Origin: Acidobacteriota bacterium
GTDB taxonomy: Bacteria > Acidobacteriota > Vicinamibacteria > Vicinamibacterales > 2-12-FULL-66-21
Assembly (NCBI GenBank): GCA_013694635.1
Contig: JACDCA010000764.1
Coordinates: 1-30,917 of the forward strand
DNA length: 30,917 bases
Direction: 5' to 3'
The position numbers and the translations under genes were made by a program. Shown piece after piece: positions 11,608-30,917 of the stretch; the stretch's first letter is position 1, and each line of letters starts with the position of its first letter. Below the pieces are notes generated by a model, which ran no database searches, had not been told where the DNA came from, and saw nothing but the letters and a program-made list of their open reading frames with translations.

Positions 11608-11640
11608 ATCAGTCGTTTGTTGGCGCGAATCTGCGCTGGT

Positions 11641-12486: not shown

Positions 12487-12525
12487 GGAGAAACGGCGAC
12501 AACGCGACACAGACCGCGAGCGCAG

Positions 12526-12555
12526 AGTATCGAGGCTTGCCCGCGCAGGTGTCAA
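12526..12555 (-). promoter_or_regulatory. Putative sigma70 promoter for iolB-iolD
   Basis: Minus strand TTGACA (12555-12550), an 18-nt spacer, then GATACT (12531-12526), about 40 nt upstream of the iolB ATG. Confidence 0.55.
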
Positions 12556-12568
12556 GGCGCCGCACCGA

Positions 12569-12577
12569 TGGTAGACT
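12569..12577 (+). promoter_or_regulatory. Putative extended -10 promoter for iolC-iolE-dehydrogenase
   Basis: TG-G-TAGACT ends 9 nt upstream of the iolC GTG start. No Shine-Dalgarno sequence is present. Confidence 0.45.
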
Positions 12578-12586
12578 CCCCTGCCG

Positions 12587-14463: not shown

Positions 14464-14479
14464 CTCTCCACGCCTGACG

Positions 14480-17185: not shown

Positions 17186-17210
17186 GCGCAGCCCTGAAGG
17201 GCTGGACTAC
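17186..17210 (-). repeat. GTAG-tagged REP-like palindrome
   Basis: The minus strand reads GTAG-TC-CAGCCC-TTCA-GGGCTG-CGC, a GTAG tetranucleotide followed by a 6-bp stem and 4-nt loop. The GTAG contains the esterase stop codon. Confidence 0.55.
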
Positions 17211-18145
17211 GGCCGAGGCTTCCACTGGACGAACCCCATCTCCACCAGCCACATTTCGCACAGCGTCGTCCAGGACTCGGTCGAGCCCGGATTATTCCGC
17301 AGCGCGATGGCGTGACCGCCGCGTGGAAACAGGTGCAGGCTCGCCGACACACGGTTCTCCACCAGCGCTTTGACAAACAGCAGGCTGTTGCGAACATCGA
17401 CGGCCTTGTCGTCAGAGGCGTGCACCACGAATGCGGGGGGCGTTGCCGGCGTCACCTGCCGCTCCACCGAGTACGCGCGCACCAGCTGCTCCGGCGGATT
17501 CGGGCCGAGGAGCCGGGTCCTGCTTCCTGCGTGCGCGTGTTCCCCCATCGTGATGACGGGTGACACGAGAATCATGAAATTTGGAGCGAACGATCTCTTG
17601 TCTACTTGATCGTCGATCCCGCCGGCGTCCGCAGTGGACGTTCCAAGAACTGCCGCCAGGTGGCCGCCTGACGAAGTGCCCATGACGCCGAGCTTGTCAG
17701 GGTTGATGCCCCACGTGGCGGCTCTGGACCGGATCACCCGCATCGCCCGCTGCGCATCCTGCAGCGGAGCGAGGTGTCGCTCCTTTACGTCCGGCGACTC
17801 GGGCAGGCGATAAGTCAGCACGAACGCGCTGACACCCATGGAATTGAACCACTTCGCCAACTGCGTTCCGCTGATGACGTGCGCGAGCCAGGCGTATCCT
17901 CCTCCGGGACAAATCAGGACCGCCGCGCCCGTGTTTTCCTGCGACGAGGGGAAAAAGGCATGGATCCCCGGGGTGCCGACCTGGCGGATCCGTTCGTTCT
18001 CGATGCGGTCCTCGAGCGCAATCCCCCGCGAGTTGGGCATCGACCCTTTGGGCCAGAGTGGAATGAACTCCTGGGCGCTCGCGGACTGTGCGCTCAGTCC
18101 AACGCTCAGTCCAAGAACGAGAACCACGACACACGAACGCAGCAT
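17207..18145 (-). CDS. Secreted alpha/beta-hydrolase (carbohydrate/acetyl esterase-like), about 312 aa
   Basis: Start MLRSCVVVLVLG at 18145 (signal peptide ending SASA-Q). CPGGGY oxyanion motif, GTSSGG nucleophile elbow, SDD and GGH for the catalytic Asp and His. Confidence 0.88.
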   Translation of the reverse strand: MLRSCVVVLVLGLSVGLSAQSASAQEFIPLWPKGSMPNSRGIALEDRIENERIRQVGTPGIHAFFPSSQENTGAAVLICPGGGYAWLAHVISGTQLAKWFNSMGVSAFVLTYRLPESPDVKERHLAPLQDAQRAMRVIRSRAATWGINPDKLGVMGTSSGGHLAAVLGTSTADAGGIDDQVDKRSFAPNFMILVSPVITMGEHAHAGSRTRLLGPNPPEQLVRAYSVERQVTPATPPAFVVHASDDKAVDVRNSLLFVKALVENRVSASLHLFPRGGHAIALRNNPGSTESWTTLCEMWLVEMGFVQWKPRP

Positions 18146-18149
18146 GCTT

Positions 18150-21100
18150 CTAGCGCATGCCCGCCAGGCTCTCGGAATGTGACGGCACGACCGGAAGCTT
18201 CTTGGTGGACGAGGGATCGGCGGCGGCACGCAGGAGGTTGATTGCGAACAGACGCGCGGCTGGGTCGACGGTCACCGATTCTTCGAGATCCATATCGCAG
18301 ATCCACACGCGGCCGCGACCAAGCGGAATCTCGAACAGCACCGTCAGGTACTGCTCCGGCACGCGCTCGGCGGCAATGTACCCGTGCGCCGGGATGAACC
18401 GTATCAGTTCCCGCGCTGCGCCGCCAGCTTTCAAACGATGCGCGCTGCTCGCGACAAAGACACGCCAGTCATCCTTGCGTCCCCACCACTTGATGTCCAT
18501 GGGGCGGAGTCCGGCCGTCAGCAGCGTCCCGGCGGACGGGGCGTAATCGGCGAACTCCCCGGTGACGGCCCTGACCGCCGACACGTCACTGGGGAACAGG
18601 TCAACAGCGCTTCTGCCGGGGGAGAACAGAACGGCAGTCGCCCCCTGTTCTATCAGTTGACGCAGGCGTCCACCCACTGCCATCGCGGTCTGCGCTGCGC
18701 CGGGCCCGACGAGGACGACTGAGCGCGACGCCTCGCCACCCGCAGGCAAGTCGTCGATCACCTGTTCGAACATTCGCGCCTCGGTCACCAACTGCCGCAA
18801 CCCCGGGCCCAATGAGATAGCGGTGGCCTGGCTCTTCGACGGCGGTGCGGCCGGCTGAGCGTTCCGCGGAAACACTTCGACCCTGTCCAGCGTCCGGCTC
18901 ACCTCGCGCTTGCCGTCCGCAAGCCGCAGCTCGAGATGCATGGAGACGCGCGCGTCCTTCGTCTCCGGCACGCGAAGGCGCAGCGGGTGGCGGGTGGTCG
19001 CGTAATAAGGAAGACTCTCGATGATCCCAGCGTCGATCGTGGAGATTTCGCGTCGGGTACGTTCGTCCACGAACACGGCACTCAGCTTCAGCCGCTGCAG
19101 GCCACGAAACTGCTCATCGTCATTGGTGAGGAAGACACCGGTGTCGATCTCTTCTCCCGCATGAAAGCGCCGCCGCCCCGTTTCCAGCGCCAACCCGACG
19201 GGAGCCCACGCGTGGCGCATCGCCTGATACACGGGATACGGCGCGACCCGCCGCGCGTCGTAGCTGTGCGCGAACCAGCACTCCGCCGAGAACAGCATGA
19301 ATCCGGCAGTGCGATCGCCGCGCTGAAAGCGGAGCTGCTCGGCCCAGCGTTTCGTCACCGCGCGGTTGTGTTCGAGAAACACCGCCGGAGCGCGACCGGG
19401 ATACGCGTCCTGCCCGACCCAGGCCTGGGGCGTCACCAGATCCCTGGTGTAGCGCAACACCGGCAGCCCGGTGTCGAGGTCCGGGTAGCCGGTGGACATC
19501 TCCTGCCCGATGAGCGGACGGTCCGGCGTCAGGTTCCTGATGTCGGCCAGTGAATCCACCACGAACGGCGAATCGCTGTACCACCCGCGATATCGATGAA
19601 TATCATCCGCATCCCCATCGTCTATCCCGTTCGGCTGGAGTGTCTTTTCATAGAACTCCGCTTCACGTTGATGCGTCGAGTCAGCAATGACCGGACGATA
19701 GGGATCGAGACGACGAGTCTGTTTGACGACCTGGGACAGCAGCTTCCATTTGTCGAGATTCTTCGCGTCGCGCAAGAGCATTTCGTTGCCGACGGTCCAC
19801 AGCAGGATGCTCGGATGGTTCCGCCCGCGCCTGACGACATCCTCGTTTTCCATCAGCCAGTGGTTGAACACGTCAGGCGGCGGCGGGCCGATGAGCCCGG
19901 CCAGCGCCCAGGGACGGATGCCTTCGATACTCACCCCCAACCCGATTTCATCCGCTGCTCTCAGCCACTCCTCATTCCACGGGGTGGCGTGCGTCCGCGT
20001 CACGCGCTGATTGCCGTCGTGCATCAACTGAATCAGCGTGCGCGGCAGTGCAGGGTCCCAGGAGTTCTTGCCGTAGGGAAGCTGGTTCGCGCCGCGCAGC
20101 CAGTACGGCTTGCCGTTCAGGAAAAACCGGTTGCCGCGTGCTTCGAACGTGCGGAAGCCGACGTTGTGCGTCCACTGATCGAGCACTTCCCCGGATGCGG
20201 CTTCGAGCATCACGTCCAGTCGGTAGAGGTTCGGATCCGCAGGCGTCCACAGCTTCGGCTGCACGTTACGCAGCGTGAGCTCCTGCGTCACCCGGCTTTC
20301 GCCGAGCTGCAGCGTGACCGGGCCGGCGGTCGCGAACACGGTGCCGGTCTTCGCGTCGGTCCATCGTGCTTTCAGAACGGCAGGCTGCGGGCCCGCCAGG
20401 CTGCGCATCTCCACCTGCACCCTCGCGCCCTCGAGCGTCGGGACGAACCACGCATCGTCAATCATCGCGCCGCCGCGGACGACCAGCTGCACCGGCTGCC
20501 AGATGCCGTGCAGGTCGTAACTGCGATTGTTCGCATCGGGCGAAAGGGGGCCGAACATGCCCTTGCTCAACGTCAGGATCTTCGAAGCCGTGAGATTCAC
20601 CGTGACGGCCTGGCCGAGTGACAGCGTTGAGCTGGGAATCTTTTCCATCGAGACGAACACCGACAGCCGGTTGCGCCCGGCCCTCAGGTGCGGCGTCAAG
20701 TCATACCCGAAGCGGCTGAACATGCCGACGTGTTCGCCGAGGAGCTGGCCGTTGAGGAAGGCGCGGCTCTTCATCGCGACGCCGTCGAACTCGATGAAGA
20801 TGCGCCGACCGCGCGGCAAGGCGGGCACCTCCAACTGCAGCTGATACCAGCCGTCTTCCGCCCGCTCGGTATCGAAGCCGAGTTTCCGGAGTCGCGCCGC
20901 TTCGAACGCCTTGAAGTCTTCCGAGTCGTCCAGCCACCATTGCGTGCGATTGAGAAGCTGTGGAACCGGAACCGCGACATAACCAGTCAGCGACTCGTCC
21001 AGCTGCGGCTGTTCGGTCGGCTGCACGAGATAGCCCGGCTTGTACCGCCACTGCCCCGTCAGGTCGATCGATCGCCCCGGCTGCAACTGCGTCGCCGCGA

Positions 21101-21248
21101 CGCTCACCGAGCCGGCCGGGACAATCGTCTGCGCGAACACATCTTCCGGCTGAAGTCTGAAGCCAGCGGCCAGGAAGCCACCGCCCACTACGACCGCGAC
21201 GGCAACCGGAACGAGCAAGGATCGATGCCGCAGGCCGAGAACGCTCAT
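18150..21248 (-). CDS. Secreted glycoside hydrolase family 2, about 1032 aa, with a C-terminal extension
   Basis: ATG 21248 overlaps the MFS stop (ATGA). IDLTGQWRY, IEFDGVAM..FLNG..LGEH.GMF, GIWQPV, WTPADPNLY, VGFRTFE..FFLNGKPYWLRG, acid/base WTVGNE and probable nucleophile IGQE. Confidence 0.92.
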   Translation of the reverse strand: MSVLGLRHRSLLVPVAVAVVVGGGFLAAGFRLQPEDVFAQTIVPAGSVSVAATQLQPGRSIDLTGQWRYKPGYLVQPTEQPQLDESLTGYVAVPVPQLLNRTQWWLDDSEDFKAFEAARLRKLGFDTERAEDGWYQLQLEVPALPRGRRIFIEFDGVAMKSRAFLNGQLLGEHVGMFSRFGYDLTPHLRAGRNRLSVFVSMEKIPSSTLSLGQAVTVNLTASKILTLSKGMFGPLSPDANNRSYDLHGIWQPVQLVVRGGAMIDDAWFVPTLEGARVQVEMRSLAGPQPAVLKARWTDAKTGTVFATAGPVTLQLGESRVTQELTLRNVQPKLWTPADPNLYRLDVMLEAASGEVLDQWTHNVGFRTFEARGNRFFLNGKPYWLRGANQLPYGKNSWDPALPRTLIQLMHDGNQRVTRTHATPWNEEWLRAADEIGLGVSIEGIRPWALAGLIGPPPPDVFNHWLMENEDVVRRGRNHPSILLWTVGNEMLLRDAKNLDKWKLLSQVVKQTRRLDPYRPVIADSTHQREAEFYEKTLQPNGIDDGDADDIHRYRGWYSDSPFVVDSLADIRNLTPDRPLIGQEMSTGYPDLDTGLPVLRYTRDLVTPQAWVGQDAYPGRAPAVFLEHNRAVTKRWAEQLRFQRGDRTAGFMLFSAECWFAHSYDARRVAPYPVYQAMRHAWAPVGLALETGRRRFHAGEEIDTGVFLTNDDEQFRGLQRLKLSAVFVDERTRREISTIDAGIIESLPYYATTRHPLRLRVPETKDARVSMHLELRLADGKREVSRTLDRVEVFPRNAQPAAPPSKSQATAISLGPGLRQLVTEARMFEQVIDDLPAGGEASRSVVLVGPGAAQTAMAVGGRLRQLIEQGATAVLFSPGRSAVDLFPSDVSAVRAVTGEFADYAPSAGTLLTAGLRPMDIKWWGRKDDWRVFVASSAHRLKAGGAARELIRFIPAHGYIAAERVPEQYLTVLFEIPLGRGRVWICDMDLEESVTVDPAARLFAINLLRAAADPSSTKKLPVVPSHSESLAGMR
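21143..21181. repeat. Degenerate REP-like palindrome inside the GH2 signal/N-terminal coding region
   Basis: CTTCCGGC-TGAA-GTCTGAAG is an imperfect hairpin with the same TGAA loop as the 17186 element, followed by GGAAGCCAC. It resembles, from memory only, the GTGGCTTCCGGCTTCAGCCGGAAG repeat of Vicinamibacteria. Confidence 0.3.
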
Positions 21249-22528
21249 GCTCGGGATTCTCCAAGTGACTGGCCAGCGGGTCTGAATGTGGAGATCAGAA
21301 GGTGCATCACGCCGAGCGCCAGCAGGTAGACGGTTCCGAAGCACAGAAACACGGGCCCGTAAGAGCCGCCGGACCAGTCGAGCCAATACCCAATGAGCGG
21401 CGACGTGAGCATGCCCGAGATAGCACCAGCCGTGCCGCCGATGCCGACAACCGAGCCCACCGCGCGACTCGGCACCATGTCGGCGACGAGCGTGAACAGA
21501 TTCGCGGACCATCCCTGGTGCGCCGCGGTCGCCAGGCTGATCAGCGCCACGGCACCCCACAGGTTGTCGCCGAGGCGGCTCACCAGCATCACCGGCACAA
21601 CGGCCAATGCGCAGATCAGCATCGCGGTCTTACGCGCGGCGTTGAGTGACCAGCCACGCTTCAGCAGAGACGACGAGAGCCACCCTCCGCCGATGGACCC
21701 CACATCCGCGGCCAGGTAGATGGTGATGAGCGGCACGCCCATCTGCAGGATGTTGAGACCGTGCGTCCGATCGAGAAATCCCGGCAGCCAGAACAGATAG
21801 AACCACCACACGGGATCCGTCAGGAATTTCCCGATCGCAAAGACCCATGTGGCGCGCACGGCGAAGAGGCTGCTCCACGGGATCGCCGGCAAAGGGATCG
21901 TCGTCGCCTCGCGGCCTTCCCTGATGAACGCCAGTTCTGCCGGCGCGAGCCGCGGGTGTTCTTCCGGCTTCCGGTAGAACCAGAGCCACAGCGCCAGCCA
22001 CAGAAAACCAACCGCTCCAGTGAGCAGGAAGGCGGCCTGCCAGCCCCACTTCACCGCGATGATCGGGACGACCAGCGGTGCAACGATGGCCCCCACGTTC
22101 GAGCCGCTGTTCAGGATGCCTGTGGCGAGCGCCCGCTCGCGCGCGGGGAACCATTCGGTGACCGTCTTGATGCACGCTGGAAAGTTCGCCGCTTCTCCAA
22201 TTCCGAGGGCAAACCGCGCCGCCGCGAAGCCGCTCGCGCTGCGCGCAAGCGCGTGGGCCATTCCCGCCACGCTCCAGACGACGATCGCGACCGCAAAGCC
22301 GGTGCGGGTGCCGAACAGGTCGAGCAGGCGCCCGGCAAACAGAAGCATGAGGCCGTACGCGCCCTGGAAGGAAAACGCGATCCATCCGTACTCCGCTTCG
22401 CTCCAGTTCAATTCGCGCGCGAGCATCGGCTTCAACAGACCGAGCACCTGCCGGTCGACGTAGTTGATGGCGGTGGCGAGAAACAGCAGCCCGCAGATGT
22501 ACCACCGCAGGTGCGGGAGGGGTTTCAC
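21245..22528 (-). CDS. MFS transporter, ExuT-like hexuronate/anion:cation symporter family, 427 aa
   Basis: LRWYICGLLFLATAINYVDRQ, GIGEAANFPACIK..EWFP.RER..ATG..NSG and DPVWWFYLFW. About 12 TM helices. GTGA coupling to the SDR. Confidence 0.92.
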   Translation of the reverse strand: MKPLPHLRWYICGLLFLATAINYVDRQVLGLLKPMLARELNWSEAEYGWIAFSFQGAYGLMLLFAGRLLDLFGTRTGFAVAIVVWSVAGMAHALARSASGFAAARFALGIGEAANFPACIKTVTEWFPARERALATGILNSGSNVGAIVAPLVVPIIAVKWGWQAAFLLTGAVGFLWLALWLWFYRKPEEHPRLAPAELAFIREGREATTIPLPAIPWSSLFAVRATWVFAIGKFLTDPVWWFYLFWLPGFLDRTHGLNILQMGVPLITIYLAADVGSIGGGWLSSSLLKRGWSLNAARKTAMLICALAVVPVMLVSRLGDNLWGAVALISLATAAHQGWSANLFTLVADMVPSRAVGSVVGIGGTAGAISGMLTSPLIGYWLDWSGGSYGPVFLCFGTVYLLALGVMHLLISTFRPAGQSLGESRA

Positions 22529-23322
22529 GAGTTCACTCCCGACGCCAGGAAGCCGCCGTCGATGACGATGGCCTGACCGGTGATGAAGCTGGCGGCGTCC
22601 GACGCCAGGAACGCGGCAGCGCCGACAACCTCTTCAGGCCGGCCGAATCGCCCCATCGGGGTCCGCATCAACAACTCGCGGCCGCGCGGCGTGCCGTCGA
22701 GGAGCGCGGCGTTCAAGTCGGTCCGGAATACGCCGGGCACGACGGCGTTCACGTTCACGCCCTGCGGGGCCCATTCCGTGCCGAGGCTGCGAGTGAGCGA
22801 TAGAACCGCGGCCTTCGACGCGCCGTAAGCCGCGACCTCGTGAAAAGCGACGAACGAAGACAACGATGCGATATTGACGATGCGGCCCCGGCGGTGGCGC
22901 GACAGCGCCGCGAAGAACGCCTGGCAGGCGTATAGCGTGCCGGTCAGGTTGGCCTCGAGCACGGAGGCCCATTCATCGCCGGTGACGTCCGCCGTCGGAC
23001 GACGGGCCGTGCGGCCGGCCGCGTTCACCAGCACATCCACGCCACCCAGCTGTGCGCACACGGCATCGCACAACGCGTCCACCGAATCGCGGGAGACAAC
23101 GTCCACGCCCTGCTCGAGTGTCCGCCGGCCCATCCCGCGAATCTCGGCGCATGTCTCTGCGACGAGTGCGGTGCGTCGGCCTGCGGGAACAACGTCCGCA
23201 CCGCACTCTGCAAGACCGATGGCAATGGCGCGGCCGAGGCCGGATGTGCCGCCGACAACCACGGCGACCCTGCCGGTCAGGTCGGTGAAGTTTCGAGGGT
23301 AGCGCTCAACCGGCGCTGTCAC
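22525..23322 (-). CDS. Short-chain dehydrogenase/reductase (KduD / gluconate-5-dehydrogenase / SDR-type mannonate oxidoreductase-like), about 265 aa
   Basis: GTG 23322 overlaps the uxaC stop. GGTSGLG, NAAG, NIAS, YGASK, VNAVVPG and TPMGRFGRPEE...VIDGGF motifs. Confidence 0.9.
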   Translation of the reverse strand: MTAPVERYPRNFTDLTGRVAVVVGGTSGLGRAIAIGLAECGADVVPAGRRTALVAETCAEIRGMGRRTLEQGVDVVSRDSVDALCDAVCAQLGGVDVLVNAAGRTARRPTADVTGDEWASVLEANLTGTLYACQAFFAALSRHRRGRIVNIASLSSFVAFHEVAAYGASKAAVLSLTRSLGTEWAPQGVNVNAVVPGVFRTDLNAALLDGTPRGRELLMRTPMGRFGRPEEVVGAAAFLASDAASFITGQAIVIDGGFLASGVNS

Positions 23323-24614
23323 GCCGACTGCCTCGACGGCGTCCACTGCAGAAAGTTGTCGGCGAGGAGGCGACCGACGTCGCGTTCGATCTCGGCAACA
23401 GTCACCGGGCGTCCATTCTCGACGACACGCACGTACTGGTCCGCAAGGGCGAGGGAGATTTCGCGCCTCGCGTGTGGCCACTTGTAGAGCAGTTGCTCGA
23501 GCACTCGCGCGTCGGAATGCTGGGCGATGAAGCTCGTGCCGAGCATTTCGAGCCGCTCGCGCGTGATCTCGGAAACGATCGACGGATTGTTGAGAAACCA
23601 CCAGCAGCCAAACGGCATCAGGTTCGAAAACTTCCGCGCCGCCACGCACAGGTCATGCTGGTTCTCCCGCGACAGCATCGTCACCAGGAACCGGTTGTCA
23701 GGATGCTCGGCACACATCCGCTGGACAGCGGTCACGTCAGCGCGGCCCAGTCCGTCGCCCGCGTCGTGGAGCTCGGGGTTCACGGCGCGGCGCACGCCGA
23801 TCATCATCGCGAAGGGCAGGCCATGATCGCGGCAGGCGGGCAGGACGACATCGCGAATGAGCAGCCCCCGCGGTCCGTCGCCAGGCCATGCGAAGTCATC
23901 GGGTAGCGAGACCGCCAGGTACAGCGGAGCCATGCGTGCGATCCACGCATCAATGAAACGGCGAGCCTGAACGACGGTTGCGGCGTCCGGCTCCGCAGCG
24001 GCGGCGTATCCTGCGGCGATCAGTCGCTTGCGACCCTCTGGCCAGTCGTTCAACAGCGTGTCGAGACGAAGGGCGGTGTGGAAGCGGTCGTCGAGCTCGG
24101 GTCCCTCGTCCCACACGCGAACTTCTCGCGTGTCGAAAGGGTCGTTGGTCATGACGACCCCCCCGACGCGCGCGCGATCGAACACCCGGGCCAGGTGATC
24201 CGATGGCGTGACGTCGCGAAAGAACTCACGGGCCTCTGTCAGATTCGGCGCCGACGGGTCGAGACCGAGCGCCGAGAGGACGGCGACTACTCCGCACGTG
24301 GCTTCGGAGAGCGGGGTGTTGCGGACGAACAGCGCGTCCCACACAAGGTCGGCCTGCGCGGGTTTCGTCAGACGGCGAAACTGCTCCGGGCGCATCTCGA
24401 CCGCGCGCATCAACTCGGCGACCAGGTAGTGGTACGTGAGCAGGTCGTCGATGCCCGACCTGGTCAACTCGGTGAACGCAGGCGGGAACAGGTGCGTGTG
24501 CATGTCGAAGACCGCCATCTCCTGCACCACTCTCGCGGTGTGGAGGCGCACGTCCTCGGCCCCGTGAAGAGGCTGCTGCGGCACCGCGGTTCGGTTCTCG
24601 ACGATCTCAGTCAC
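23319..24614 (-). CDS. uxaC: Uronate (glucuronate/galacturonate) isomerase, Bacillus halodurans BH0493-type, about 431 aa
   Basis: [56 protein letters not shown] and [14 protein letters not shown]. Start GTG 24614 (alternative ATG 24635). Confidence 0.92.
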
Positions 24615-25848
24615 GCATGAATGGCTCCCGGTCATCTGCAGGATCGGCCCAGCGATCGTTGGGGACGAGCGGCGCCCATCCCGGACGGCCCGGATCCTGA
24701 TCGTACGGATACGGGCCGAGCTCCCGGTACAGCTCGGCGTACTGCGCGAGCTTGTCGCGGTCCAGCCGCACGCCCAGCCCGGGTCCCTCGGGCACACGGA
24801 TGCTTCCGCTGTCGTAGGTGAACTTTCCCCCCTCGATGATGTCGTCGGTGAGGTGGTGGTAATGCGCGTCGGCGGCAAACGACAGATTCGGGATCACTGC
24901 GCCGAGGTGCAGCATGGTGGCGAGCTGGATCCCGAGCTCGCCGGAGGAGTGAACAGCGACCCCGAGCTGGAAGGTCTCACAGACACCGGCCGCCTTGACG
25001 CACGCCCGGATGCCGCCCCAGAAGGTCGTATCGAGCAGAATGACATCGACGGCGCGGTGCAGCGCGTTGGCGGCGAGCTGCTCGAAGTTCACCACCACCG
25101 TGTTGGTGGCGAGCGGCAGCCGCAGCTTCTCCCGCGCATGCCGCATCCCGGTCAGCCCGAACACCGGATCCTCGAGGTAGTCGTTGTCGAGATCCTCGAT
25201 CGCGCGGCCGAACCGCACCGCCTGTTCGGTCGTCCAGACGGCGTTCGGGTCGAATCGGAACGTGTCGCCTGGCAGTGCAGCGGCGAGGGCGCGGTAGCAT
25301 TCGAGCTCGTAGTCGGGCCGGAACACCCCGCCTTTCATCTTGTGCGAGCGGAAGCCGTACTGCTCCTTCAGCTCCAGTGCGTGTGCGACGAGCTGCTCCA
25401 CTGTCCGGACGACACCCCGCCCGTTCGCTGATGCGTACCGGAAAAACAAGTACGAGGCGAACGGCACGCGATCGCGAACGCGCCCGCCAAGAATGTCGGA
25501 GACCGGGACGCCCCATGCCTGACCGAGCAGGTCGAGACAGGCAAACTCCAGCGCGGCGACGACCTGCGTCCTGTTGTTGTAGAGCGACGCGGTCGGATTG
25601 GCGAGCAGGAAGCGCATCTCTTCGAGACGCGCCGGATCACGCCCGAGCAGGCATGCCTTCAACGACTGCACCACCGCGACCGCTGACTCGCCGCCACCGC
25701 CCATCTCTCCGAGGCCGATGAGACCCGTGTCGGTCTCGATCTCCACGATCGTGCGGACGAACCGGCCCCAATGGCATCCGTTCGCGTGGCGCAGCGGCGC
25801 CTCGAGCGGAACGGTCACCGTCGTCGCGCGAACATCAGTGATCTTCAT
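24607..25848 (-). CDS. Enolase-superfamily acid-sugar dehydratase, glucarate dehydratase-like subgroup, about 413 aa
   Basis: ATG 25848 overlaps the upstream stop (ATGA). KMKGG, DPN, EDP, ATN and His motifs follow the GlucD layout. HSSGE and DAHY differ from the HSNNH and DTHW of canonical GudD. Confidence 0.88.
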
Positions 25849-28805
25849 GGAGTTCTGTCGGGGAGCTTGGCCGGGTCGACCGTCCGCGGCAGCTCTTTTT
25901 CCACGAGCCCGATCCGCCGCGCGGCGGAATCCCGGGCCGAGCGCCAATAGCGAAGGACGTAATCCATCGCGGACTCTTCCACGGCTCTGCTGTCGGAACC
26001 GCCGACGATCAGCCATGTCGCGTCACCGCCCGCGGCGGGTTCGACGCGCTGCACGAAGCTGCCGGCGGCGGGGAGCCTATCGGCGATCCGCGCCATCAGC
26101 GCGTGCGACTTGGGGGTGCCGACGAGAATGAGCGTACCTGGCTCGACCGCCGCGGGTAGATCGTCCAGTTGATAGATGTCCACCGGGCGTCCGCTCGCGC
26201 TCTCGAGGGTGCTGGCGAGCACATAGGCGGCTTCCATTTCGAGCACGGGCGCATTCTGCCCGTACACCACGCGAATCGGTTTCGCGTAATCGAAGTCGAC
26301 GGTTCCGGCGGCCAGACCCGGATATGCGACAAGGGATCGCGCCTTTGAATCGAACACAGGTCGCGCGGCCAATCGTGCTTCGTTCCACACGTACCGCAGC
26401 GAACCGTCAGCCCGTTGCAGACGCAGGAACCAATGATAGAAGCCCGGCGTTGCTCCGCGGGTGGAAAGCGCGACAGTGAACTTGTGGGTCCCGCCGGGAG
26501 CCACGTCGGCGACAGCCGGGGAGGTGAGCGTCCCGCGAAGGTCTGACGGACCTTCCACGGTCGCTCGGACACGTTCGGCGCTCGTGCCGCGGTTTGTCAG
26601 AGTCAGGATCGCGGTCCCCCGGCCACGTGCGTCCAGGGATGTAACGGTGTGTGACGCGTCGAGTTGGCGGATCGGATCTTCCGGCGCCACGAAGCGGTGC
26701 ATCAGCCGCATCAGCTCGAATGCTTCCGGCTTCGGGCGGCGGCTGAGGCGCAGCGGCTCGTAATGACGGATGCCCGTGCGGCCCAGCCGCGGATTGACGG
26801 TGAGCGTTTCCTGGAACTGGAACTGATGGAACTCGCCGATCGCGCGGCTCTCGAGCGCCCCACCGATGATGTCGGGATAGACCGTGGCCCGCGCTTCCGG
26901 CGTCATCCGCGTCAACCCACGCCAGTTCCACTCGGTGATCACGGCTGGTTTCCCCGCCTTCGAAGCGTAGTTCGCCATCGCGAGCGCGAACCCGCGGCCG
27001 CTCGGAATGGCGTCGAGGCTGTCGATGTAGGCGTGCCCGCCGACGCGATCGAACTTCACGCCGAGCTGCTCGAGTCTCGTGAAGATGCCGGTGTTCGTAT
27101 GTGCCGTGAGGTGGACCGGCACATCGGGCGCGACAGACTTGACCGCGTCGTAGACCGCGTTCCAGTAGCGGGGACGATCCTGTGGAATGCCCCAGATCAG
27201 GATCTCGTTTTCCAGTTCGACCGATTCGACGACATCGCGGTAGCGCGAGACCATGGCAGCCATTTGTGCCGGCGTGAAGCGCGCGTCAGAAGGACTCAGC
27301 ATCGCGCGAAGTTTCAGATGCCGCAGCTCGCTGAAAAGAAAATCGAGGTACTCGCGCTGGACGCGGGCGTCCAGTTGCGCGATCACGTCGAGATAGTGGA
27401 GGCGGATAACGTGGAAGCCCATCGCTTTCGCGATGCGCAGGTCACGCCGGATCGCGTCGGCAAACAGCGGCCACTGCTGCACCGTGTCGGCCGCCAGCGG
27501 CCAATAGCCCTCGCTGTCCATCCCGGGCAGCTTCAGCCGGTCGAAGTTTTCGCCGAGAGTGGAGTACGGAAAGTAGCTGGTGCCGAATCGCACATGCGGG
27601 ACGCCGAAGGAGAGAGTCACCTCCGCATCACGACGGTCTTGCCGCCAGTACCCCGTGTACGCGAGGAATTGCTCGGTCGCACGTACGTCGGAGATGGGCG
27701 CAGGTTCGAATGCGAGTCTCGATCCGAAGCTGACGCTCTCGCCGGCCGGCGGCAGGATGTTGTCGACGAGGCGATCCCGATACGACTGGATGTTCGTCCG
27801 TGCGATCTCCGTAATCCAGAAGAGCGCCTCCGGCGCGGCCTGCGCTTCCGAGCCGAGCTGCGGAATATTCGCCCCGGTGTAGCGCGGCTGGCGGAAGCGA
27901 TTCTCGGACGAGTCCTGAAGGATAGTGAACGAGTCCGCAAAGTCGTTCATCCACGCGACCGATGCTCCTGCAGTTGTGCGCAGCGTCAGCCAGTCGACGC
28001 CACGCTGGACGAAGTGATGCCGTCCCTCGCCGGCGCGAAACGGGGTGCGGCCGGTCGCTGCCAGTGGAGCGATGCGGTTGTCGTAGCAGATCCGGCGCTC
28101 GGCGGCGTCGGCGGCGTGCGTCAACCGGCTCACGACCGCCGCGTACACGCCCGATGTGCGAGCGTCAGGCTCGGTGGTCACGCGCGTGGAGAGGTCGAGA
28201 AATCCCTCACGGTAGGCGCGCAGTGTGAGGGCGACGGACAGGCCGTGGCGGGAGCCTTTTGCCGTCCACGTATCGAAAACGTGCCCCTGTACCGTGCGCG
28301 TGAACTCGAGTGGCAACGCCTCGAAGGTGGGTGCGAGATCCTGGGGTGGAGTCGCGGTGCTTGTTTTCGGCGCGCTCGCGGCGGCGGACAGATGAACACT
28401 CCAGGAGAGGTTGCCGATCGGCTGTCCATCAAAGGACACGCGGACACCATCGTCGATCGTGTCAATCACGAGCCGCCGGTCCGGCTCGGAACGCCGGCTT
28501 GCCGGCAGCAGAGCCAAACGCCGCGATGCGTTCGCGTTGACACTACCGATCAAGACGACTCCGCTATCCACCGGCTGGACGGCAGCCCCTTCCGCCATCA
28601 AGTGTTCGGCAGTGTCACCGGTGATCCCGGAGACCTCCATCGGCATGCGGATGGCGAACGGCTGGTTGTTGACGAGCACGATCGCCGACGGGCGCCTACC
28701 ACCGTCGTCCGCGCCGGTCGGGGCCATCCAGACCCAGGCTGCGGCGAGCGCGATGCCCCAGCAACCTACGCCACCCGCGAGAGACTTAGAACGAGAAGCG
28801 CGCAC
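25845..28805 (-). CDS. Large secreted multidomain protein with a clan GH-A-like TIM barrel (unclassified glycoside hydrolase), about 986 aa
   Basis: GTG 28805 gives a signal peptide ([32 protein letters not shown]). Central RFGTSYFP...[16 protein letters not shown]...ELENE...GGHAY...VITEW pattern, followed by an Ig-like domain and a C-terminal alpha/beta domain. Confidence 0.82.
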
Positions 28806-30917
28806 CGAACCGGATCTCGCGTTCGCCGAACGAGGAGCTGATGCGACCGAAGGTGCCGGCGTTGGCAAAGCTGCCGCTCGGATTGCGATAGTGCGGCGTG
28901 TTCGTGAGGTTGAACGCCGACGCGTTGACCATCAGGCGCTTGTCTCCGCGCAGCCGGAAGGTCCGTGACAGCGTCATGTTGTAGTTGACATACCCGGGGC
29001 CCCGGACGCTGTTGCGACCCGCGTTCCCGAGAGTACCGGGAGCGGGCTCGACGAAGACGCTGGTATCGAACCAGAGCTCGGTGGGACCCGTTCCCCCCAG
29101 AATGGCAGGCTGGCCGGTGACATTCGGCCGGTTGGTGAAACCCGTACCCTGTGGCATGTTGGCGGTCAGCCGAACGCCCGTGATGTCGACCGGGGACCCT
29201 GAGCGCGCGGCGAACACACCGTTGATGTTCCACCCGCCGAGTACCGCCGCCGCGATCCCGTCCCGCAGGAAGCGTCCATCGCGCCCGAACGGCAGCGGCG
29301 TCACGTGGCTGACCACCAGGTTGTGGCGGCGATCGAAACCCGAGGGTCCACGATTGGCCTCGAGATCCAGCGGATTCTGGACCGTGAAGGCGGCCGAGTA
29401 ATCTTCTGACTTGCTCAGCGTGTACGCCGCAGTGATCCGCCCCGCGCTGCCAAGCCGTCGCTCCACCTTCGACTGAAACGCGTGATAGGACGAGCCGAGG
29501 ATGAAATCCGACAGGAGCGTGTCGGCGGTGCGTCCAAACCGGATTGCGAGTGGACGATTCGCCTGGGTGGCACCCGGACCGGCCGCGTTCAGGTTTCTCG
29601 TGCCCGGCAGCCGTCTGCCAAGCGAGCCGACATAGGACGCATCGACCACGAAGCCGAAAAGATCGCGCTGCACCGTTGCGTTGAACGACTGCACATACCC
29701 GCGCTTCGGATTTTCGTTGATCACGGGCAGAACGACGTTGACCGGAGGGGAGGTGACGACGCCGGTGGTGACATCGACGATCGGCACCGTTGGAATCCCT
29801 GTCGAAAGGTTGCCCGCCGGCAGGAAGCTGTTGGCCCCCGCCACGCTGAGTTGCACCTGAGCCGGATACCCGACGCCCGCCAGCGTGTTGATCCCGAGGG
29901 GGATGTAGCCGATGCCGTAACCGCCGCGCAGCACCGTCTTGTCGTCAAGCCTGTAGGCGGCGCCGAGCCGCGGCGCGACGTTGTCGTATTCGGTCCTCAC
30001 GTTCAGCCGCTTCGACACCGACCCGTAACCGCCAACCAGGATCTCATTGGTCTCCGGCAGGTACCGCGACTGGTCGCCCGCATTCGGAACCGTCGCAAAT
30101 GGATAGATCTCGTAGCGCACACCGTAATTGAGCGTCAGGCGGCTGGTCGGCTGCCAGCGATCCTGGACGAAGAAGAAATACTGCTGCAGCTCGTACCCGC
30201 TCGACTGGTTGATCTGAGTACGCGCCATCGACTGTGGCAGGCCCAGCAGGAATGCCGCAACGGCATTCGCCGACGACGAGGTCGGTCCACCGCTGAGCGA
30301 CGTGGGGCCGGTCGTGAACGTGAACGTCCCACGAGGATCGCCGGCTGACGCCTGGCCCTTGTCGAGCCCGAGGTTCCGCAGGTCCATACCGAACCGGACC
30401 GTGTGCTTCCCCTTCTGCATCGTCCAGTTATTGACGACGTTGTAGCTGGTTTCGATGATTCTGAACGGCAAGGTTCCGGCGGCTCCGAGAAAGGCGTAGC
30501 CGCTGATAGCGATGCGGGAGATTCCGTTGGTGAAGACGTCACCCGTGTTGATGCCCGGGATACCCAACCGTGTCGCCAGATCGGCTTCCGTCGGCGACGC
30601 GCCCTCGATGCGTACGCGCACGAAGCCGGCGCGGAATTCAGAGACGATGGTCGGAGAAAAGGCGTGCGTGAGATTGAGCGAGCCGCTCTGATTTCGGGCC
30701 TCGCCGATGGCCGCCGTCGCGCCGCCGCTCGTCGATGGTCCGCCGAGGACGCCGAAGGAGGGGGCGTCGGCGGTGTCGGCCTGGAAATAGCTGTAGCGGA
30801 CGAAGCCCTGCGTCCGGTTGCCGAAGGAGTGATTCACCTTGACGTCGCCGGAGTGGCGGTCCTGGACGAACTGGCCTGTGGCTTCGTAGTTCAAGGTGGC
30901 ACCAGGCCCTGTGGGGT
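28786..30917 (-). CDS. TonB-dependent receptor, Oar-like (C-terminal about 710 aa; 5' part outside the window)
   Basis: The frame is open to the window edge. FFVQDRWQPTSRLTLNYGVRYE, NVAPRLGAAY, SFNATVQRDL, YTLSKS, DRRH, NAGRN..RGPG..N and a C-terminal Phe (IRFGARFSF). Confidence 0.93.
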   Translation of the reverse strand, partial: PTGPGATLNYEATGQFVQDRHSGDVKVNHSFGNRTQGFVRYSYFQADTADAPSFGVLGGPSTSGGATAAIGEARNQSGSLNLTHAFSPTIVSEFRAGFVRVRIEGASPTEADLATRLGIPGINTGDVFTNGISRIAISGYAFLGAAGTLPFRIIETSYNVVNNWTMQKGKHTVRFGMDLRNLGLDKGQASAGDPRGTFTFTTGPTSLSGGPTSSSANAVAAFLLGLPQSMARTQINQSSGYELQQYFFFVQDRWQPTSRLTLNYGVRYEIYPFATVPNAGDQSRYLPETNEILVGGYGSVSKRLNVRTEYDNVAPRLGAAYRLDDKTVLRGGYGIGYIPLGINTLAGVGYPAQVQLSVAGANSFLPAGNLSTGIPTVPIVDVTTGVVTSPPVNVVLPVINENPKRGYVQSFNATVQRDLFGFVVDASYVGSLGRRLPGTRNLNAAGPGATQANRPLAIRFGRTADTLLSDFILGSSYHAFQSKVERRLGSAGRITAAYTLSKSEDYSAAFTVQNPLDLEANRGPSGFDRRHNLVVSHVTPLPFGRDGRFLRDGIAAAVLGGWNINGVFAARSGSPVDITGVRLTANMPQGTGFTNRPNVTGQPAILGGTGPTELWFDTSVFVEPAPGTLGNAGRNSVRGPGYVNYNMTLSRTFRLRGDKRLMVNASAFNLTNTPHYRNPSGSFANAGTFGRISSSFGEREIRFGARFSF

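What the first reader, a model, noticed from the sequence alone, without database searches (positions are those of the whole stretch)
21245..25848. Non-canonical hexuronate pathway: uronate isomerase + GlucD-like dehydratase + SDR, without UxaA, UxaB, UxuA or classical UxuB
Seen: dehydratase, uxaC, SDR and ExuT-like MFS are overlapped and coupled, and the dehydratase has altered GlucD substrate motifs (HSSGE, DAHY). Established: UxaC yields fructuronate or tagaturonate (5-keto-mannonate or 5-keto-altronate); KduD reduces 2,5-diketo-3-deoxygluconate to KDG; SDR-type mannonate oxidoreductases exist. Inference A (novel order): the keto-uronate is dehydrated first to 2,5-diketo-3-deoxygluconate and then reduced by the SDR to KDG, which could serve both glucuronate and galacturonate. 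Inference B: the SDR reduces first (to mannonate, altronate, L-gulonate or L-galactonate) and the enolase is a new aldonate dehydratase. Either way a GlucD-subgroup enzyme would have a new substrate.
Basis: partly seen in the sequence, partly recalled or inferred. Interest (0 to 1): 0.72.

Follow-up and report, generated by a model that had tools for sequence, protein, structure and literature searches.

The report
Alternative glucuronate breakdown operon in Acidobacteria
A soil acidobacterium carries a tightly coupled sugar-acid operon that breaks down uronic acids (from plant and microbial polysaccharides) with three non-standard enzymes. One of them is an uncharacterised but very common soil dehydratase that most likely stands in for the usual mannonate dehydratase.

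Summary
On the minus strand, 21245-25848 encodes four genes joined by 4-8-nt overlaps:
- a GlucD-like enolase-superfamily enzyme (ENO);
- a uronate isomerase of the divergent Bh0493 type (URI; not classical UxaC);
- an SDR;
- an acid-sugar MFS transporter.

They sit inside an eight-gene unit: TonB receptor, unknown 986-aa protein, ENO, URI, SDR, MFS, GH2, esterase.

UxuA, UxaA, UxaC and Mannitol_dh-type reductases were not found in this 91%-complete Vicinamibacterales MAG. A KDPG aldolase and PfkB kinases were found.

ENO orthologues (76-92% identical) are abundant in soil metagenomes. They lie next to URI (43 of 74 URI loci), next to the SDR, or next to GH67 alpha-glucuronidase (30 of 80 ENO loci). 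Some Pyrinomonadaceae copies of this operon end with a PfkB kinase and a KDPG aldolase.

The reasons:
- The same SDR family sits beside UxaA-type aldonate dehydratases in 24 genomes.
- It is distinct from true KduD.
- ENO works with either isomerase type.

The diketo route (inference A, or direct uronate dehydration) stays open at about 0.25.

No biochemistry exists. This scan had already met the same enolase on other DNA, in xylan loci. I class it as a new variant of a known pathway.

The parts
28786..30915 (-). TonB-dependent receptor (CarboxypepD_reg/OMP_b-brl_4 type), 5' end cut by the window edge; first gene of the unit
   Evidence: Pfam OMP_b-brl_4 E 6e-167. Orthologues of 54-59% identity head the same gene order in Pyrinomonadaceae and metagenome loci.
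25845..28805 (-). Unknown protein of about 986 aa. Its stop overlaps the ENO start (ATGA). Probably an exported glycan-active protein.
   Evidence: GC3 0.77, so it looks like a real gene. No Pfam, NCBIfam or PDB sequence hit. The atlas gives only 'hypothetical protein' clusters and weak GH35/cellulase leads. Orthologues of 44-77% identity lie directly upstream of ENO in L042, L046, L048, L089, L108, L156, L157 and L177.
24607..25848 (-). ENO: enolase-superfamily, GlucD-subgroup-like acid-sugar dehydratase, 413 aa. Proposed D-mannonate (and perhaps D-altronate) dehydratase.
   Evidence: Pfam MR_MLE_N/C. GlucD equivalog 162 bits vs cut-off 829; ManD 93 vs 550. Nearest PDB entries are function-unknown structural-genomics targets 4it1, 3vdg and 3vc5. 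The GudD catalytic set is conserved, with N341 changed to S and the R422 segment and a 10-aa loop deleted. Orthologues are 76-92% identical in more than 100 loci.
23319..24614 (-). URI: Bh0493-type uronate isomerase (amidohydrolase superfamily), about 431 aa. GTG start overlaps the ENO stop by 8 nt; an alternative ATG lies at 24635.
   Evidence: E 1e-132 to PDB 2q08 (Bh0493, 'uronate isomerase'), covering residues 21-411. H26, H28, H49, Y50, R170, D355 and R357 of Bh0493 are all matched. No PF02614 hit. Gene callers on related contigs also give an 8-nt overlap.
22525..23322 (-). SDR: classical short-chain dehydrogenase, about 265 aa. Proposed fructuronate/tagaturonate reductase (stand-in for UxuB/UxaB).
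   Evidence: Pfam adh_short. KduD equivalog 214.7 bits, below cut-off 338.85; SDR-type mannonate oxidoreductase 195 bits, below 281. Best PDB hit is 1vl8. In the tree it falls in a 100/99 clade of ENO/URI-linked SDRs, with UxaA-linked SDRs nearest and KduI-linked SDRs distant.
21245..22528 (-). MFS transporter of the anion:cation symporter type (the family of ExuT, GudP and DgoT); proposed hexuronate importer
   Evidence: Pfam MFS_1 E 5e-58. TIGR00893 249.8 bits, below cut-off 395. Orthologues of 55-71% identity follow URI or SDR in other loci and stand with PfkB + KDPG aldolase in L205 and L210.
18150..21248 (-). GH2 glycoside hydrolase, about 1032 aa; its ATG overlaps the MFS stop (ATGA)
   Evidence: Pfam Glyco_hydro_2, _N and _C. 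Best NCBIfam hit is beta-glucuronidase at 117 bits, far below cut-off 544. Orthologues of 59-72% identity stand in the same operon in Pyrinomonadaceae and metagenome loci.
17207..18145 (-). Alpha/beta-hydrolase esterase (BD-FAE type), 4 nt after GH2; last gene of the unit
   Evidence: Pfam BD-FAE E 2e-18. Junction read. Orthologues of 66-78% identity in L042, L043, L046, L089, L157 and L177.

Best explanation
The four genes are the catabolic core of an eight-gene, translationally coupled glycan and uronate utilisation operon of a Vicinamibacterales bacterium. The core is a non-orthologous version of the Ashwell isomerase pathway.

Proposed steps:
1. A hexuronate, released outside or in the periplasm by the operon's hydrolases, enters through the MFS transporter.
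2. The Bh0493-type isomerase turns it into the keto-uronate (fructuronate or tagaturonate).
3. The SDR reduces the 5-keto acid to the aldonate (D-mannonate, perhaps also D-altronate).
4. The GlucD-like enolase-superfamily enzyme removes water to give 2-keto-3-deoxygluconate (KDG).
5. A PfkB kinase and the KDPG aldolase encoded elsewhere (contig C738) finish the route.

Shown here: the gene identities, the coupling, the conservation of the module, and its linkage to glucuronate-releasing enzymes and to kinase and aldolase genes.

Inferred: each substrate and the order of steps.
For: Coupling: 4-8-nt overlaps join six consecutive genes.

URI: E 1e-132 to the solved uronate isomerase Bh0493, with its catalytic residues kept.

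ENO-URI link: an ENO orthologue lies directly upstream of URI in 43 of 74 URI loci from named Acidobacteriota genomes.

ENO-centred view, 80 metagenome loci:
- URI follows ENO in 20 of 60 loci with room to see it.
- The SDR orthologue follows ENO in about 15 of those.
- GH67 alpha-glucuronidase is present in 30 of 80.

Link to KDG use:
- Pyrinomonadaceae copies of this operon (L042, L043, L046) end with PfkB + KDPG aldolase.
- In G136 and G046 the SDR orthologue stands in an SDR-MFS-PfkB-aldolase operon.

Ten high-quality ENO+ genomes:
- 2 have URI and 6 have classical UxaC, never both.
- None has a full-length UxuA match.

Order of steps:
- In 24 of the 36 surveyed genomes with an SDR orthologue, it lies within about 3 kb of a UxaA/GarD-family dehydratase, which acts on aldonates or aldarates.
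- Five such loci were checked. One is an SDR-SAF-GD_AH-MFS operon in a sister Vicinamibacterales genome.
- KBS 96 has no ENO orthologue but has UxuA-like genes, and there the SDR orthologue sits directly upstream of GH67.
- SDR tree: the ENO/URI-linked clade has 100/99 support, UxaA-linked SDRs are nearest, and KduI-linked SDRs are distant.
- The KduI-linked SDR of G307 passes the KduD equivalog cut-off (382 vs 339 bits). The window SDR (215) and a UxaA-linked SDR (249) do not.
- KduI homologues occur in only 1 of 160 loci.

Own genome: no UxuA, UxaA, UxaC or Mannitol_dh_C found, but Eda and PfkB are present.
Against: - No assay exists for any of these proteins.
- ENO keeps the whole GlucD catalytic set. 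GlucD's native chemistry, as I recall it, is C5-H abstraction and 4-OH loss from a gluco-configured acid. That would fit free glucuronate or fructuronate as well as mannonate.
- Enolase-superfamily D-galacturonate dehydratases giving 5-keto-4-deoxyuronate have been reported in a thesis (cited in PMC6353982).
- G160 and G307 (98-99% complete) have ENO, the SDR orthologue, KduI-family genes, a kinase and an aldolase. G307 also has a bona fide KduD. No URI or UxaC was found in either. The reduce-first route cannot start from a uronate there.
- ENO lies next to GH67 more often than next to the SDR.
- The SDR fails the NCBI model for SDR-type mannonate oxidoreductase (195 vs 281 bits).
- The MAG is only 91% complete.
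- Related genomes are not independent, so the co-occurrence counts overstate the support.
Confidence: 0.55

Rival explanations
1. Diketo route. ENO dehydrates the keto-uronate, or free (4-O-methyl)glucuronate or galacturonate. With an isomerisation by URI or UxaC, this gives 2,5-diketo-3-deoxygluconate. The SDR then reduces that to KDG, as KduD does. With 4-O-methylglucuronate the leaving group would be methanol.
For: - The GlucD catalytic residues are all kept, and only the parts aligned to GudD's R422 segment and a 10-residue loop are lost.
- There is precedent for enolase-superfamily D-galacturonate dehydratases forming 5-keto-4-deoxy-galacturonate (PMC6353982 citing Groninger-Poe 2014).
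- ENO is immediately next to GH67 in many loci.
- The ENO-URI overlap of 8 nt is conserved.
- G160 and G307 have ENO and KduI-family genes, and G307 also a true KduD, but no URI or UxaC was found.
- The SDR belongs to the wider KduD / gluconate-5-dehydrogenase cluster of 5-keto-acid reductases.
Against: - The ENO-linked SDRs fail the KduD equivalog cut-off, and a true KduD coexists with an SDR orthologue in G307.
- Their nearest relatives sit beside UxaA-type aldonate dehydratases. In these genomes, which mostly lack Mannitol_dh enzymes, UxaA needs a keto-uronate reductase.
- KduI is almost never near ENO: 1 of 160 loci.
- Corrinoid methyltransferase sets next to ENO in some GH67 loci suggest that demethylation is done separately there.
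- No isomerase is known to act on 5-keto-4-deoxyuronate other than KduI/DhuI (my knowledge).
Confidence: 0.25
2. ENO acts on another acid sugar that is not made from a uronate by this operon, for example an aldonate made by oxidising a released aldose. Its linkage to URI and the SDR would then reflect a shared glycan, not consecutive steps. Alternatively, ENO is an epimerase rather than a dehydratase.
For: - In G160 and G307, ENO sits after a GH38-like protein, an unknown 735-aa protein and an esterase. It sits before a DUF5005-like protein, an FAA-hydrolase-family protein and another SDR.
- The FAA-hydrolase-family protein's best match is 2,4-didehydro-3-deoxy-L-rhamnonate hydrolase (243 bits, cut-off 500). 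That layout resembles non-phosphorylative aldonate pathways.
- Metagenome loci L127, L130 and L149 share the upstream part of that layout: the unknown 735-aa-type protein, with the esterase in L127 and L130, before ENO.
- Several ENO loci have no uronate gene nearby.
- GlucD itself epimerises its substrates (my knowledge).
Against: - The commonest neighbours by far are URI, the SDR and GH67.
- The Pyrinomonadaceae operons join ENO, URI, SDR and MFS to a kinase and an aldolase with no other dehydratase.
- If the shared substrate were D-mannonate, this reading merges with the best explanation.
Confidence: 0.12
3. ENO is an ordinary glucarate or galactarate dehydratase of the oxidative uronate pathway, and undetected uxuA/uxaA genes carry the isomerase flux.
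For: Source databases label the relatives 'glucarate dehydratase'. The MAG is incomplete.
Against: - TIGR03247 scores 162 bits against a cut-off of 829.
- Identity to GudD is only 31%, with the R422 segment and a loop deleted.
- No KdgD above cut-off and no HpcH/GarL aldolase in the genome.
- ENO is coupled to an isomerase-pathway enzyme.
- No full-length UxuA match in 10 genomes of 98-100% completeness that carry ENO.
Confidence: 0.03

Closest known systems
Ashwell isomerase pathway of E. coli and Bacillus (UxaC; UxuB/UxuA for glucuronate; UxaB/UxaA for galacturonate; KdgK; KdgA/Eda; ExuT), as summarised in PMC6353982
   Same: Same logic and same end product under the preferred reading: import, aldose-ketose isomerisation, NAD(P)H reduction, dehydration to KDG, then kinase and aldolase. 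The transporter is of the same MFS family.
   Different: None of the three core enzymes is an orthologue. The isomerase is Bh0493-type (no PF02614 hit). The reductase is an SDR rather than a Mannitol_dh-family enzyme. The dehydratase is an enolase-superfamily protein rather than UxuA or UxaA.
Bh0493 of Bacillus halodurans, a divergent uronate isomerase of the amidohydrolase superfamily (PDB 2q08 and others)
   Same: About 60% identity over the whole length, E 1e-132. The residues I recall as catalytic or substrate-binding (H26, H28, H49, Y50, R170, D355, R357) are all matched.
   Different: The genomic partner here is a GlucD-like enolase. From memory, Bh0493 lies among canonical galacturonate genes. 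I could not read that paper here.
D-glucarate dehydratase GlucD/GudD of E. coli (enolase superfamily, GlucD subgroup; PDB 1ec7)
   Same: Same fold and the same catalytic constellation: K205-x-K207, D235/E260/N289 metal ligands, the D313-H339 dyad, plus Y150, F152, N237, D366 and H368.
   Different: 31% identity. N341 becomes Ser. The segment holding R422 and a 10-residue loop near T103 are deleted. From memory, these bind the distal carboxylate. It fails the equivalog model, and no downstream glucarate genes were found.
ManD, the enolase-superfamily D-mannonate dehydratase subgroup (e.g. Novosphingobium, Caulobacter)
   Same: A precedent, as I recall, for an enolase-superfamily enzyme replacing UxuA in glucuronate catabolism. 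It would catalyse the same reaction as proposed here.
   Different: A different subgroup. The ManD equivalog scores 93 bits against a cut-off of 550, and only the C-terminal part matches. ENO carries GlucD-type catalytic residues.
Enolase-superfamily D-galacturonate dehydratases of Geobacillus and Microscilla, followed by KduI/KduD (Groninger-Poe thesis 2014, as cited in PMC6353982)
   Same: An enolase-superfamily enzyme at the start of a uronate-to-KDG route. This is the model for the rival diketo reading.
   Different: No chain by that name appears among the best 60 PDB sequence matches of ENO. I could not fetch those sequences, so kinship is untested. ENO pairs with URI or UxaC, not with KduI.
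Thermotoga maritima UxaD, a fructuronate reductase outside the Mannitol_dh family (Rodionova 2012, as cited in PMC7953866 and PMC3750489)
   Same: If UxaD is TM0441 (PDB 1vl8), as I recall from the gene order, it is the best PDB match of the window SDR (182 bits). That would be a precedent for an SDR doing the UxuB step.
   Different: The score is only marginally better than that of KduD (4z9y, 167 bits). The TM0441 = UxaD identity rests on my memory.

Membership tests
Enolase superfamily, GlucD subgroup | MR_MLE N- and C-terminal domains. KxK at the end of strand 2, Asp/Glu/Asn metal ligands, and an Asp-His dyad on strands 6 and 7. | tested here: met
   Pfam PF02746 + PF13378. K205, K207, D235, E260, N289, D313 and H339 of GudD are invariant in alignment A1.
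D-glucarate dehydratase (GlucD/GudD, EC 4.2.1.40) | Passes the NCBI equivalog model TIGR03247 | tested here: not met
   162.1 bits against a cut-off of 828.7.
D-glucarate dehydratase (GlucD/GudD, EC 4.2.1.40) | Substrate-end residues N341, R422 and the loop around T103. Their roles are recalled from memory, not checked in a paper here. | tested here: not met
   N341 is Ser. The stretch aligned to GudD 419-422 and 10 residues of the 100s loop are deleted in ENO and all its orthologues.
D-glucarate dehydratase (GlucD/GudD, EC 4.2.1.40) | Genome holds the downstream enzymes (KdgD, or GarL with GarR/GarK) | tested here: not met
   Best KdgD-model hit is 113 bits against a cut-off of 374. No HpcH_HpaI family hit was found. 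The MAG is 91% complete.
ManD subgroup D-mannonate dehydratase | Passes the NCBI equivalog NF043051 | tested here: not met
   93 bits against a cut-off of 550, matching the C-terminal part only. This lowers 'is a ManD', not 'works like a mannonate dehydratase'.
Classical uronate isomerase UxaC (PF02614) | Match to the Pfam UxaC model | tested here: not met
   No Pfam or NCBIfam hit at E up to 10. No PF02614 match anywhere in the genome.
Bh0493-type uronate isomerase (amidohydrolase superfamily) | Full-length similarity to Bh0493, with the HxH motif, H49/Y50, R170 and D355/R357 | tested here: met
   E 1.3e-132 over residues 21-411 of 2q08. All the listed residues are identical in the printed alignment.
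KduD (2-dehydro-3-deoxy-D-gluconate 5-dehydrogenase) | Passes the NCBI equivalog TIGR01832 | tested here: not met
   214.7 bits against a cut-off of 338.85. A KduI-linked SDR of G307 scores 382.3 and passes. The two fall in separate clades.
SDR-type D-mannonate oxidoreductase (NF006132) | Passes the NCBI subfamily model | tested here: not met
   195.4 bits against a cut-off of 281. The UxaA-linked relative scores 229.9. So the proposed reductase role rests on context, not on family membership.
Classical SDR | adh_short Rossmann domain of about 250 aa | tested here: met
   PF00106 E 6e-52 and PF13561 E 5e-59.
ACS-family MFS acid-sugar transporters (ExuT, GudP, DgoT) | Passes TIGR00893 | tested here: inconclusive
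   It is the best hit, at 249.8 bits over the full length, but below the cut-off of 395. MFS_1 is clearly met.

The most novel reading that the evidence does not exclude
ENO acts directly on the uronate or keto-uronate, eliminating the C4 substituent to give 5-keto-4-deoxyuronate or 2,5-diketo-3-deoxygluconate. With 4-O-methylglucuronate, the main acid released from hardwood xylan by GH67, the leaving group would be methanol. That would explain how soil bacteria dispose of the methyl ether without a demethylase. It would also make URI or UxaC act as a KduI-like isomerase and the SDR as a new KduD-type reductase.
Probability: 0.2. Interest if true: 0.8.

Novelty: new variant of a known kind. 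Interest (0 to 1): 0.55.

Why it matters
Glucuronate and 4-O-methylglucuronate are the acidic side groups of xylan, a major input of carbon to soil.

**Abundance and misannotation**
- The ENO family is very abundant in soil metagenomes. At least 8000 database clusters score E <= 1e-20, and the best 120 are 83-100% identical.
- Source databases label it 'glucarate dehydratase', which is probably wrong.
- It sits in xylan and other glycan loci of Acidobacteriota. Earlier notes of this scan also place it in other phyla.

**What an assigned function would give**
- It would correct a widespread misannotation.
- It would complete uronate catabolism in genome-scale models of Acidobacteriota, which otherwise appear to lack UxuA and UxuB.
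- If mannonate is the substrate, it would add a third independent origin of mannonate dehydratase.
- If the rival reading holds, it would add a new uronate dehydratase route.

The test needs only three soluble enzymes and commercial substrates.

Tried and rejected
**ENO-URI fusion.** I looked for natural fusion proteins. The two long representatives with an ENO-like domain (P0203, P0255) show no similarity to URI. In L090 a single open frame matches both URI (56%) and ENO (81%); I did not examine it and do not count it as a fusion.

**Mannitol_dh versus SDR.** Among the 10 high-quality ENO+ genomes, Mannitol_dh_C hits occur only in the two without an SDR orthologue. This looked like evidence that the two enzymes replace each other. 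The G105 hit turned out to be a 383-aa protein, which I take to be MtlD-like, so I dropped the argument.

**UxuA hits.** The PF03786 hits of about 120 bits in Vicinamibacterales, Terriglobia and Bryobacterales genomes are multi-copy. Their best-scoring stretch covers only the C-terminal half of the model. I treat them as UxuA-like paralogues of unknown function. Only G082 and G085 look like true UxuA.

**Other isomerases near ENO.** None of the unknown neighbours sampled in ENO-SDR-GH67 loci was a classical UxaC. tblastn probes found no UxaC in the 160 loci and found KduI in only one, L021.

**Literature.** No open paper holds both 'GH67' and 'glucarate dehydratase', and none describes this enolase. 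The Bh0493 paper and Rodionova 2012 could not be read.

**The 986-aa upstream protein.** It has no Pfam, NCBIfam or PDB sequence match, and the atlas gives only weak leads.

**Not run.**
- A complex prediction for ENO with URI. Six of ten high-quality ENO genomes have no URI, so an obligate complex is unlikely and I make no binding claim.
- A structure model of ENO, because the tools would not let me place a ligand in it.

Full report
**What is in the window**

The window has 65-69% G+C. Third-position G+C picks out one clear reading frame per gene.

From 30915 down to 17207 on the minus strand lie eight co-directional genes:
- a TonB-dependent receptor;
- an unknown protein of about 986 aa;
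- ENO, URI, SDR and MFS (the four genes of the finding);
- a GH2 hydrolase;
- a BD-FAE-type esterase.

Six consecutive genes are joined by overlaps: ATGA, GTGACTGA, GTGA, GTGA, ATGA. The esterase follows GH2 after 4 nt. The finding's coordinates run exactly from the MFS stop to the ENO start.

Upstream, at 8865-15508, lie myo-inositol genes: a KduI/IolB-family protein, a PfkB kinase, a TPP enzyme, an AP_endonuc_2 protein and DUF2090. So the PfkB in the window is probably IolC, not KdgK.

**Identity of the four proteins**

*ENO.* It has both enolase-superfamily domains. Its nearest solved relatives are function-unknown structural-genomics targets (4it1, 3vdg, 3vc5, 2oqh). True GlucD structures score far lower. 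It fails the GlucD equivalog (162 vs 829 bits) and the ManD equivalog (93 vs 550 bits).

I aligned ENO with E. coli GudD, taken from NC_000913:
- It keeps Y150, F152, K205, K207, D235, N237, E260, N289, D313, H339, D366 and H368.
- N341 is Ser.
- DTHW is DAHY.
- Ten residues of the loop around T103 are missing.
- The four residues that include R422 are missing.
- The role of T103 and R422 in binding glucarate's distal carboxylate is my recollection, not something I checked here.

It matches the solved uronate isomerase Bh0493 at E 1e-132 over its full length, with H26, H28, H49, Y50, R170, D355 and R357 conserved.

*SDR.* It scores about equally against KduD, gluconate 5-dehydrogenase and SDR-type mannonate oxidoreductase models, and passes none of them. 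Its best PDB match is 1vl8.

*MFS.* It is nearest to the D-galactonate/ACS subfamily.

**The organism and its other pathway genes**

Close relatives come from Vicinamibacterales and other Acidobacteriota MAGs. The genome is a 783-contig MAG rated 91% complete.

| Searched in the window's genome | Result |
|---|---|
| UxuA (PF03786) | not found |
| UxaA/GarD (PF04295) | not found |
| UxaC (PF02614) | not found |
| Mannitol_dh_C (PF08125) | not found |
| KDPG aldolase next to a PfkB fragment | found on contig C738 |
| KdgD (TIGR03249) | best hit 113 bits, below cut-off 374 |
| HpcH/GarL-type aldolase (PF03328) | not found |

**Conservation of the module**

ENO is a tight orthologue group:
- The best 120 database relatives are 83-100% identical, mostly from soil metagenomes.
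- In the 50%-identity library, one full-length representative stands at 72% identity, and the next full-length ones at 46% or less.
- The group is patchy. It occurs in 10 of 300 evenly sampled high-quality Acidobacteriota genomes and in 1 of 12 genomes of the window's own genus.

I fetched 80 loci around URI homologues from named genomes. ENO lies directly upstream of URI in 43 of the 74 with room to see it. The SDR orthologue lies directly downstream in 12 of 70.

I also fetched 80 metagenome loci around ENO:
- URI follows ENO in 20 of the 60 with room to see it.
- An SDR orthologue (54-70% identical) follows in about 15, typically as ENO-SDR-GH67.
- GH67 alpha-glucuronidase is present in 30 of 80.

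Pfam on cluster representatives gave three recurrent layouts:
1. ROK regulator - TonB receptor - BD-FAE esterase - GH67 - ENO - URI - GH3 - CE15 glucuronoyl esterase - xylose-isomerase-like protein - GH3 - GH31. This is a glucuronoxylan locus.
2. The window's own layout. In the Pyrinomonadaceae loci L042, L043 and L046 it continues with a PfkB kinase and a KDPG aldolase, after a DUF2264 protein in L042.
3. ENO next to a URO-D-type methyltransferase, a B12-binding protein and a RACo activator, near GH67.

ENO is much more conserved between classes (76-92%) than URI (53-75%) or the SDR.

**Which canonical enzymes ENO-bearing genomes have**

Ten ENO+ genomes of 98-100% completeness:

| Feature | Genomes with it |
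|---|---|
| Bh0493-type URI | 2 |
| Classical UxaC | 6 (never together with URI) |
| Neither isomerase | 2 |
| Full-length UxuA match | 0 (3 have only ~120-bit hits to the C-terminal half of the model) |
| SDR orthologue | 8 |

Fifty genomes that carry URI:
- 38 have the ENO orthologue.
- UxuA-family hits occur in 8 of those 38, against 8 of the 12 without ENO.
- A UxaA/GarD-family dehydratase is present in 40 of 50, in both groups.
- Mannitol_dh_C is present in only 6 of 50.

So ENO goes with the loss of UxuA and works with either kind of isomerase. This argues that URI is a plain functional substitute for UxaC. These genomes are related to one another, so I treat the counts as descriptive only.

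**Order of the steps**

The SDR is the informative gene.
- In 24 of the 36 surveyed genomes that hold an SDR orthologue, a copy lies within about 3 kb of the UxaA/GarD-family gene (coordinates).
- I checked five such loci. They show UxaA (SAF + GD_AH_second + GD_AH_C) beside the SDR, followed by MFS in four, by an aldolase in three and by a PfkB kinase in two.
- One is an SDR-SAF-GD_AH-MFS operon with divergent aldolase and kinase genes in a sister Vicinamibacterales genome (L213).
- UxaA-type enzymes dehydrate aldonates or aldarates. These genomes mostly lack Mannitol_dh enzymes. The neighbouring SDR is therefore the best candidate for the keto-uronate reductase.
- Several ENO+ genomes have only this one SDR orthologue.
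- Acidobacteriaceae bacterium KBS 96 lacks the ENO orthologue but has UxuA-like genes. There the SDR orthologue sits directly upstream of GH67 (L215).

A maximum-likelihood tree puts the window SDR in a 100/99-supported clade of ENO/URI-linked SDRs. The UxaA-linked SDRs are the nearest rows. The SDRs next to KduI, PfkB and the aldolase in G160 and G307 form a distant clade.

The G307 KduI-linked SDR passes NCBI's KduD equivalog cut-off (382 vs 339 bits). The window SDR (215) and a UxaA-linked SDR (249) do not. KduI homologues appear in only 1 of 160 ENO or URI loci.

Together these points favour isomerase, then SDR reductase, then ENO as aldonate dehydratase.

**What keeps the rival alive**

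- ENO's catalytic set is that of GlucD. As I recall, GlucD removes the C5 proton and the C4 hydroxyl of a gluco-configured acid. Seen from the carboxylate end, glucuronate, fructuronate and D-mannonate all share that configuration at the first three carbons. This is my own stereochemical reasoning.
- A review reports that enolase-superfamily D-galacturonate dehydratases giving 5-keto-4-deoxy-galacturonate were described for Geobacillus and Microscilla in a thesis (PMC6353982). Direct uronate dehydration therefore has a precedent.
- G160 and G307 carry ENO, the SDR orthologue, KduI-family genes, a kinase and an aldolase, and G307 also a bona fide KduD. No URI or UxaC was found in either.
- In those two genomes ENO stands in yet another layout. 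A GH38-like protein, an unknown protein and an esterase precede it. A DUF5005-like protein, an FAA-hydrolase-family protein nearest to 2,4-didehydro-3-deoxy-L-rhamnonate hydrolase, and another SDR follow it.
- That layout resembles non-phosphorylative aldonate routes. It can be read as mannonate made from mannose, which would fit inference B. It can also be read as a different fate for a uronate-derived keto-deoxy acid. I cannot decide between these.

**Verdict**

The module is a real, conserved, uncharacterised variant of the hexuronate isomerase pathway. A GlucD-subgroup enolase most likely replaces UxuA, and in this genome perhaps UxaA too. An SDR replaces UxuB/UxaB.

| Reading | Odds |
|---|---|
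| These three enzymes make KDG from a hexuronate, in some order | about 0.8 |
| Reduce first, then dehydrate (inference B) | 0.55 |
| Diketo route (inference A, or direct uronate dehydration) | 0.25 |
| Another substrate, or an epimerase | 0.12 |
| Ordinary GlucD | 0.03 |

I found no open paper describing this enolase.

This scan had already noted the same enolase family on other DNA, beside GH67, CE15 and corrinoid methyltransferase genes. My results agree with those notes. They add the Bh0493-type partner, the link between the SDR and UxaA, and the evidence on the order of steps.

Noticed in passing
window 1569-30917: The window holds a GH38 alpha-mannosidase, an SBP-permease fusion, two PHP-domain proteins and the inositol genes (IolB-, IolC-, IolD- and IolE-like, plus DUF2090). 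The uronate operon lies alongside. Mannose, glucuronate, inositol and a phosphodiester are the head-group parts of plant glycosyl-inositol-phosphoceramides. This may be coincidence: the Pyrinomonadaceae copies of the uronate operon showed no inositol genes within 10 kb.
   Followed up: no
window 25845-28805 (minus strand): The 986-aa protein translationally coupled to ENO has no Pfam, NCBIfam or PDB sequence match. It is nevertheless conserved (44-77% identity) directly upstream of ENO in at least eight other loci. It is probably the glycan-active enzyme that defines this locus's substrate.
   Followed up: partly
L160, L165, L187, L168, L146, L176; L198 (G341:C1:1008000-1027900): ENO orthologues lie next to a URO-D-type methyltransferase, a B12-binding protein and a RACo-type activator, close to GH67. 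This is a candidate corrinoid-dependent 4-O-methylglucuronate demethylase set, as earlier notes of this scan proposed.
   Followed up: partly
L194 (G160:C23) and L195 (G307:C42); also L127, L130, L149: ENO appears in a fourth layout. A GH38-like protein, an unknown 735-aa protein and a BD-FAE esterase precede it. A DUF5005-like protein, an FAA-hydrolase-family protein and a different SDR follow it. In these genomes neither URI nor UxaC was found. The layout is unexplained.
   Followed up: partly
L042:16531-18537 and the same gene family in L038, L048 and L049: Some Pyrinomonadaceae copies of the window's operon carry a DUF2264 protein. I believe DUF2264 is the GH154 family, recently re-assigned as beta-D-glucuronate dehydratases acting on glycan ends (PMC12269599). 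The Pfam-to-GH154 link is from memory. The window itself has no such gene.
   Followed up: no
L196 (G160:C52:5346-8800) and L197 (G307:C1, locus 9576-12900): In the two ENO+ genomes without a known uronate isomerase, the SDR orthologue and the MFS orthologue are separated by a 370-aa M24/creatinase-fold protein with no NCBIfam hit at E <= 1e-20. It sits where an isomerase might be expected.
   Followed up: no
L026, L050, L052, L059; L192 (G145:C4): URI or UxaC loci without ENO often carry a LarA-type (Lar_N) protein beside the isomerase or a PfkB kinase. This fits the proposed nickel-epimerase bypass from mannonate to gluconate as an alternative to dehydration.
   Followed up: no
G041, G042, G043, G050, G090, G341 and others: Several Acidobacteriota genomes hold 2-7 scored matches of UxuA-like proteins whose best-scoring stretch covers only the C-terminal half of PF03786, at about 120 bits. 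This looks like an expanded paralogue family of unknown function that could be mistaken for mannonate dehydratase.
   Followed up: no
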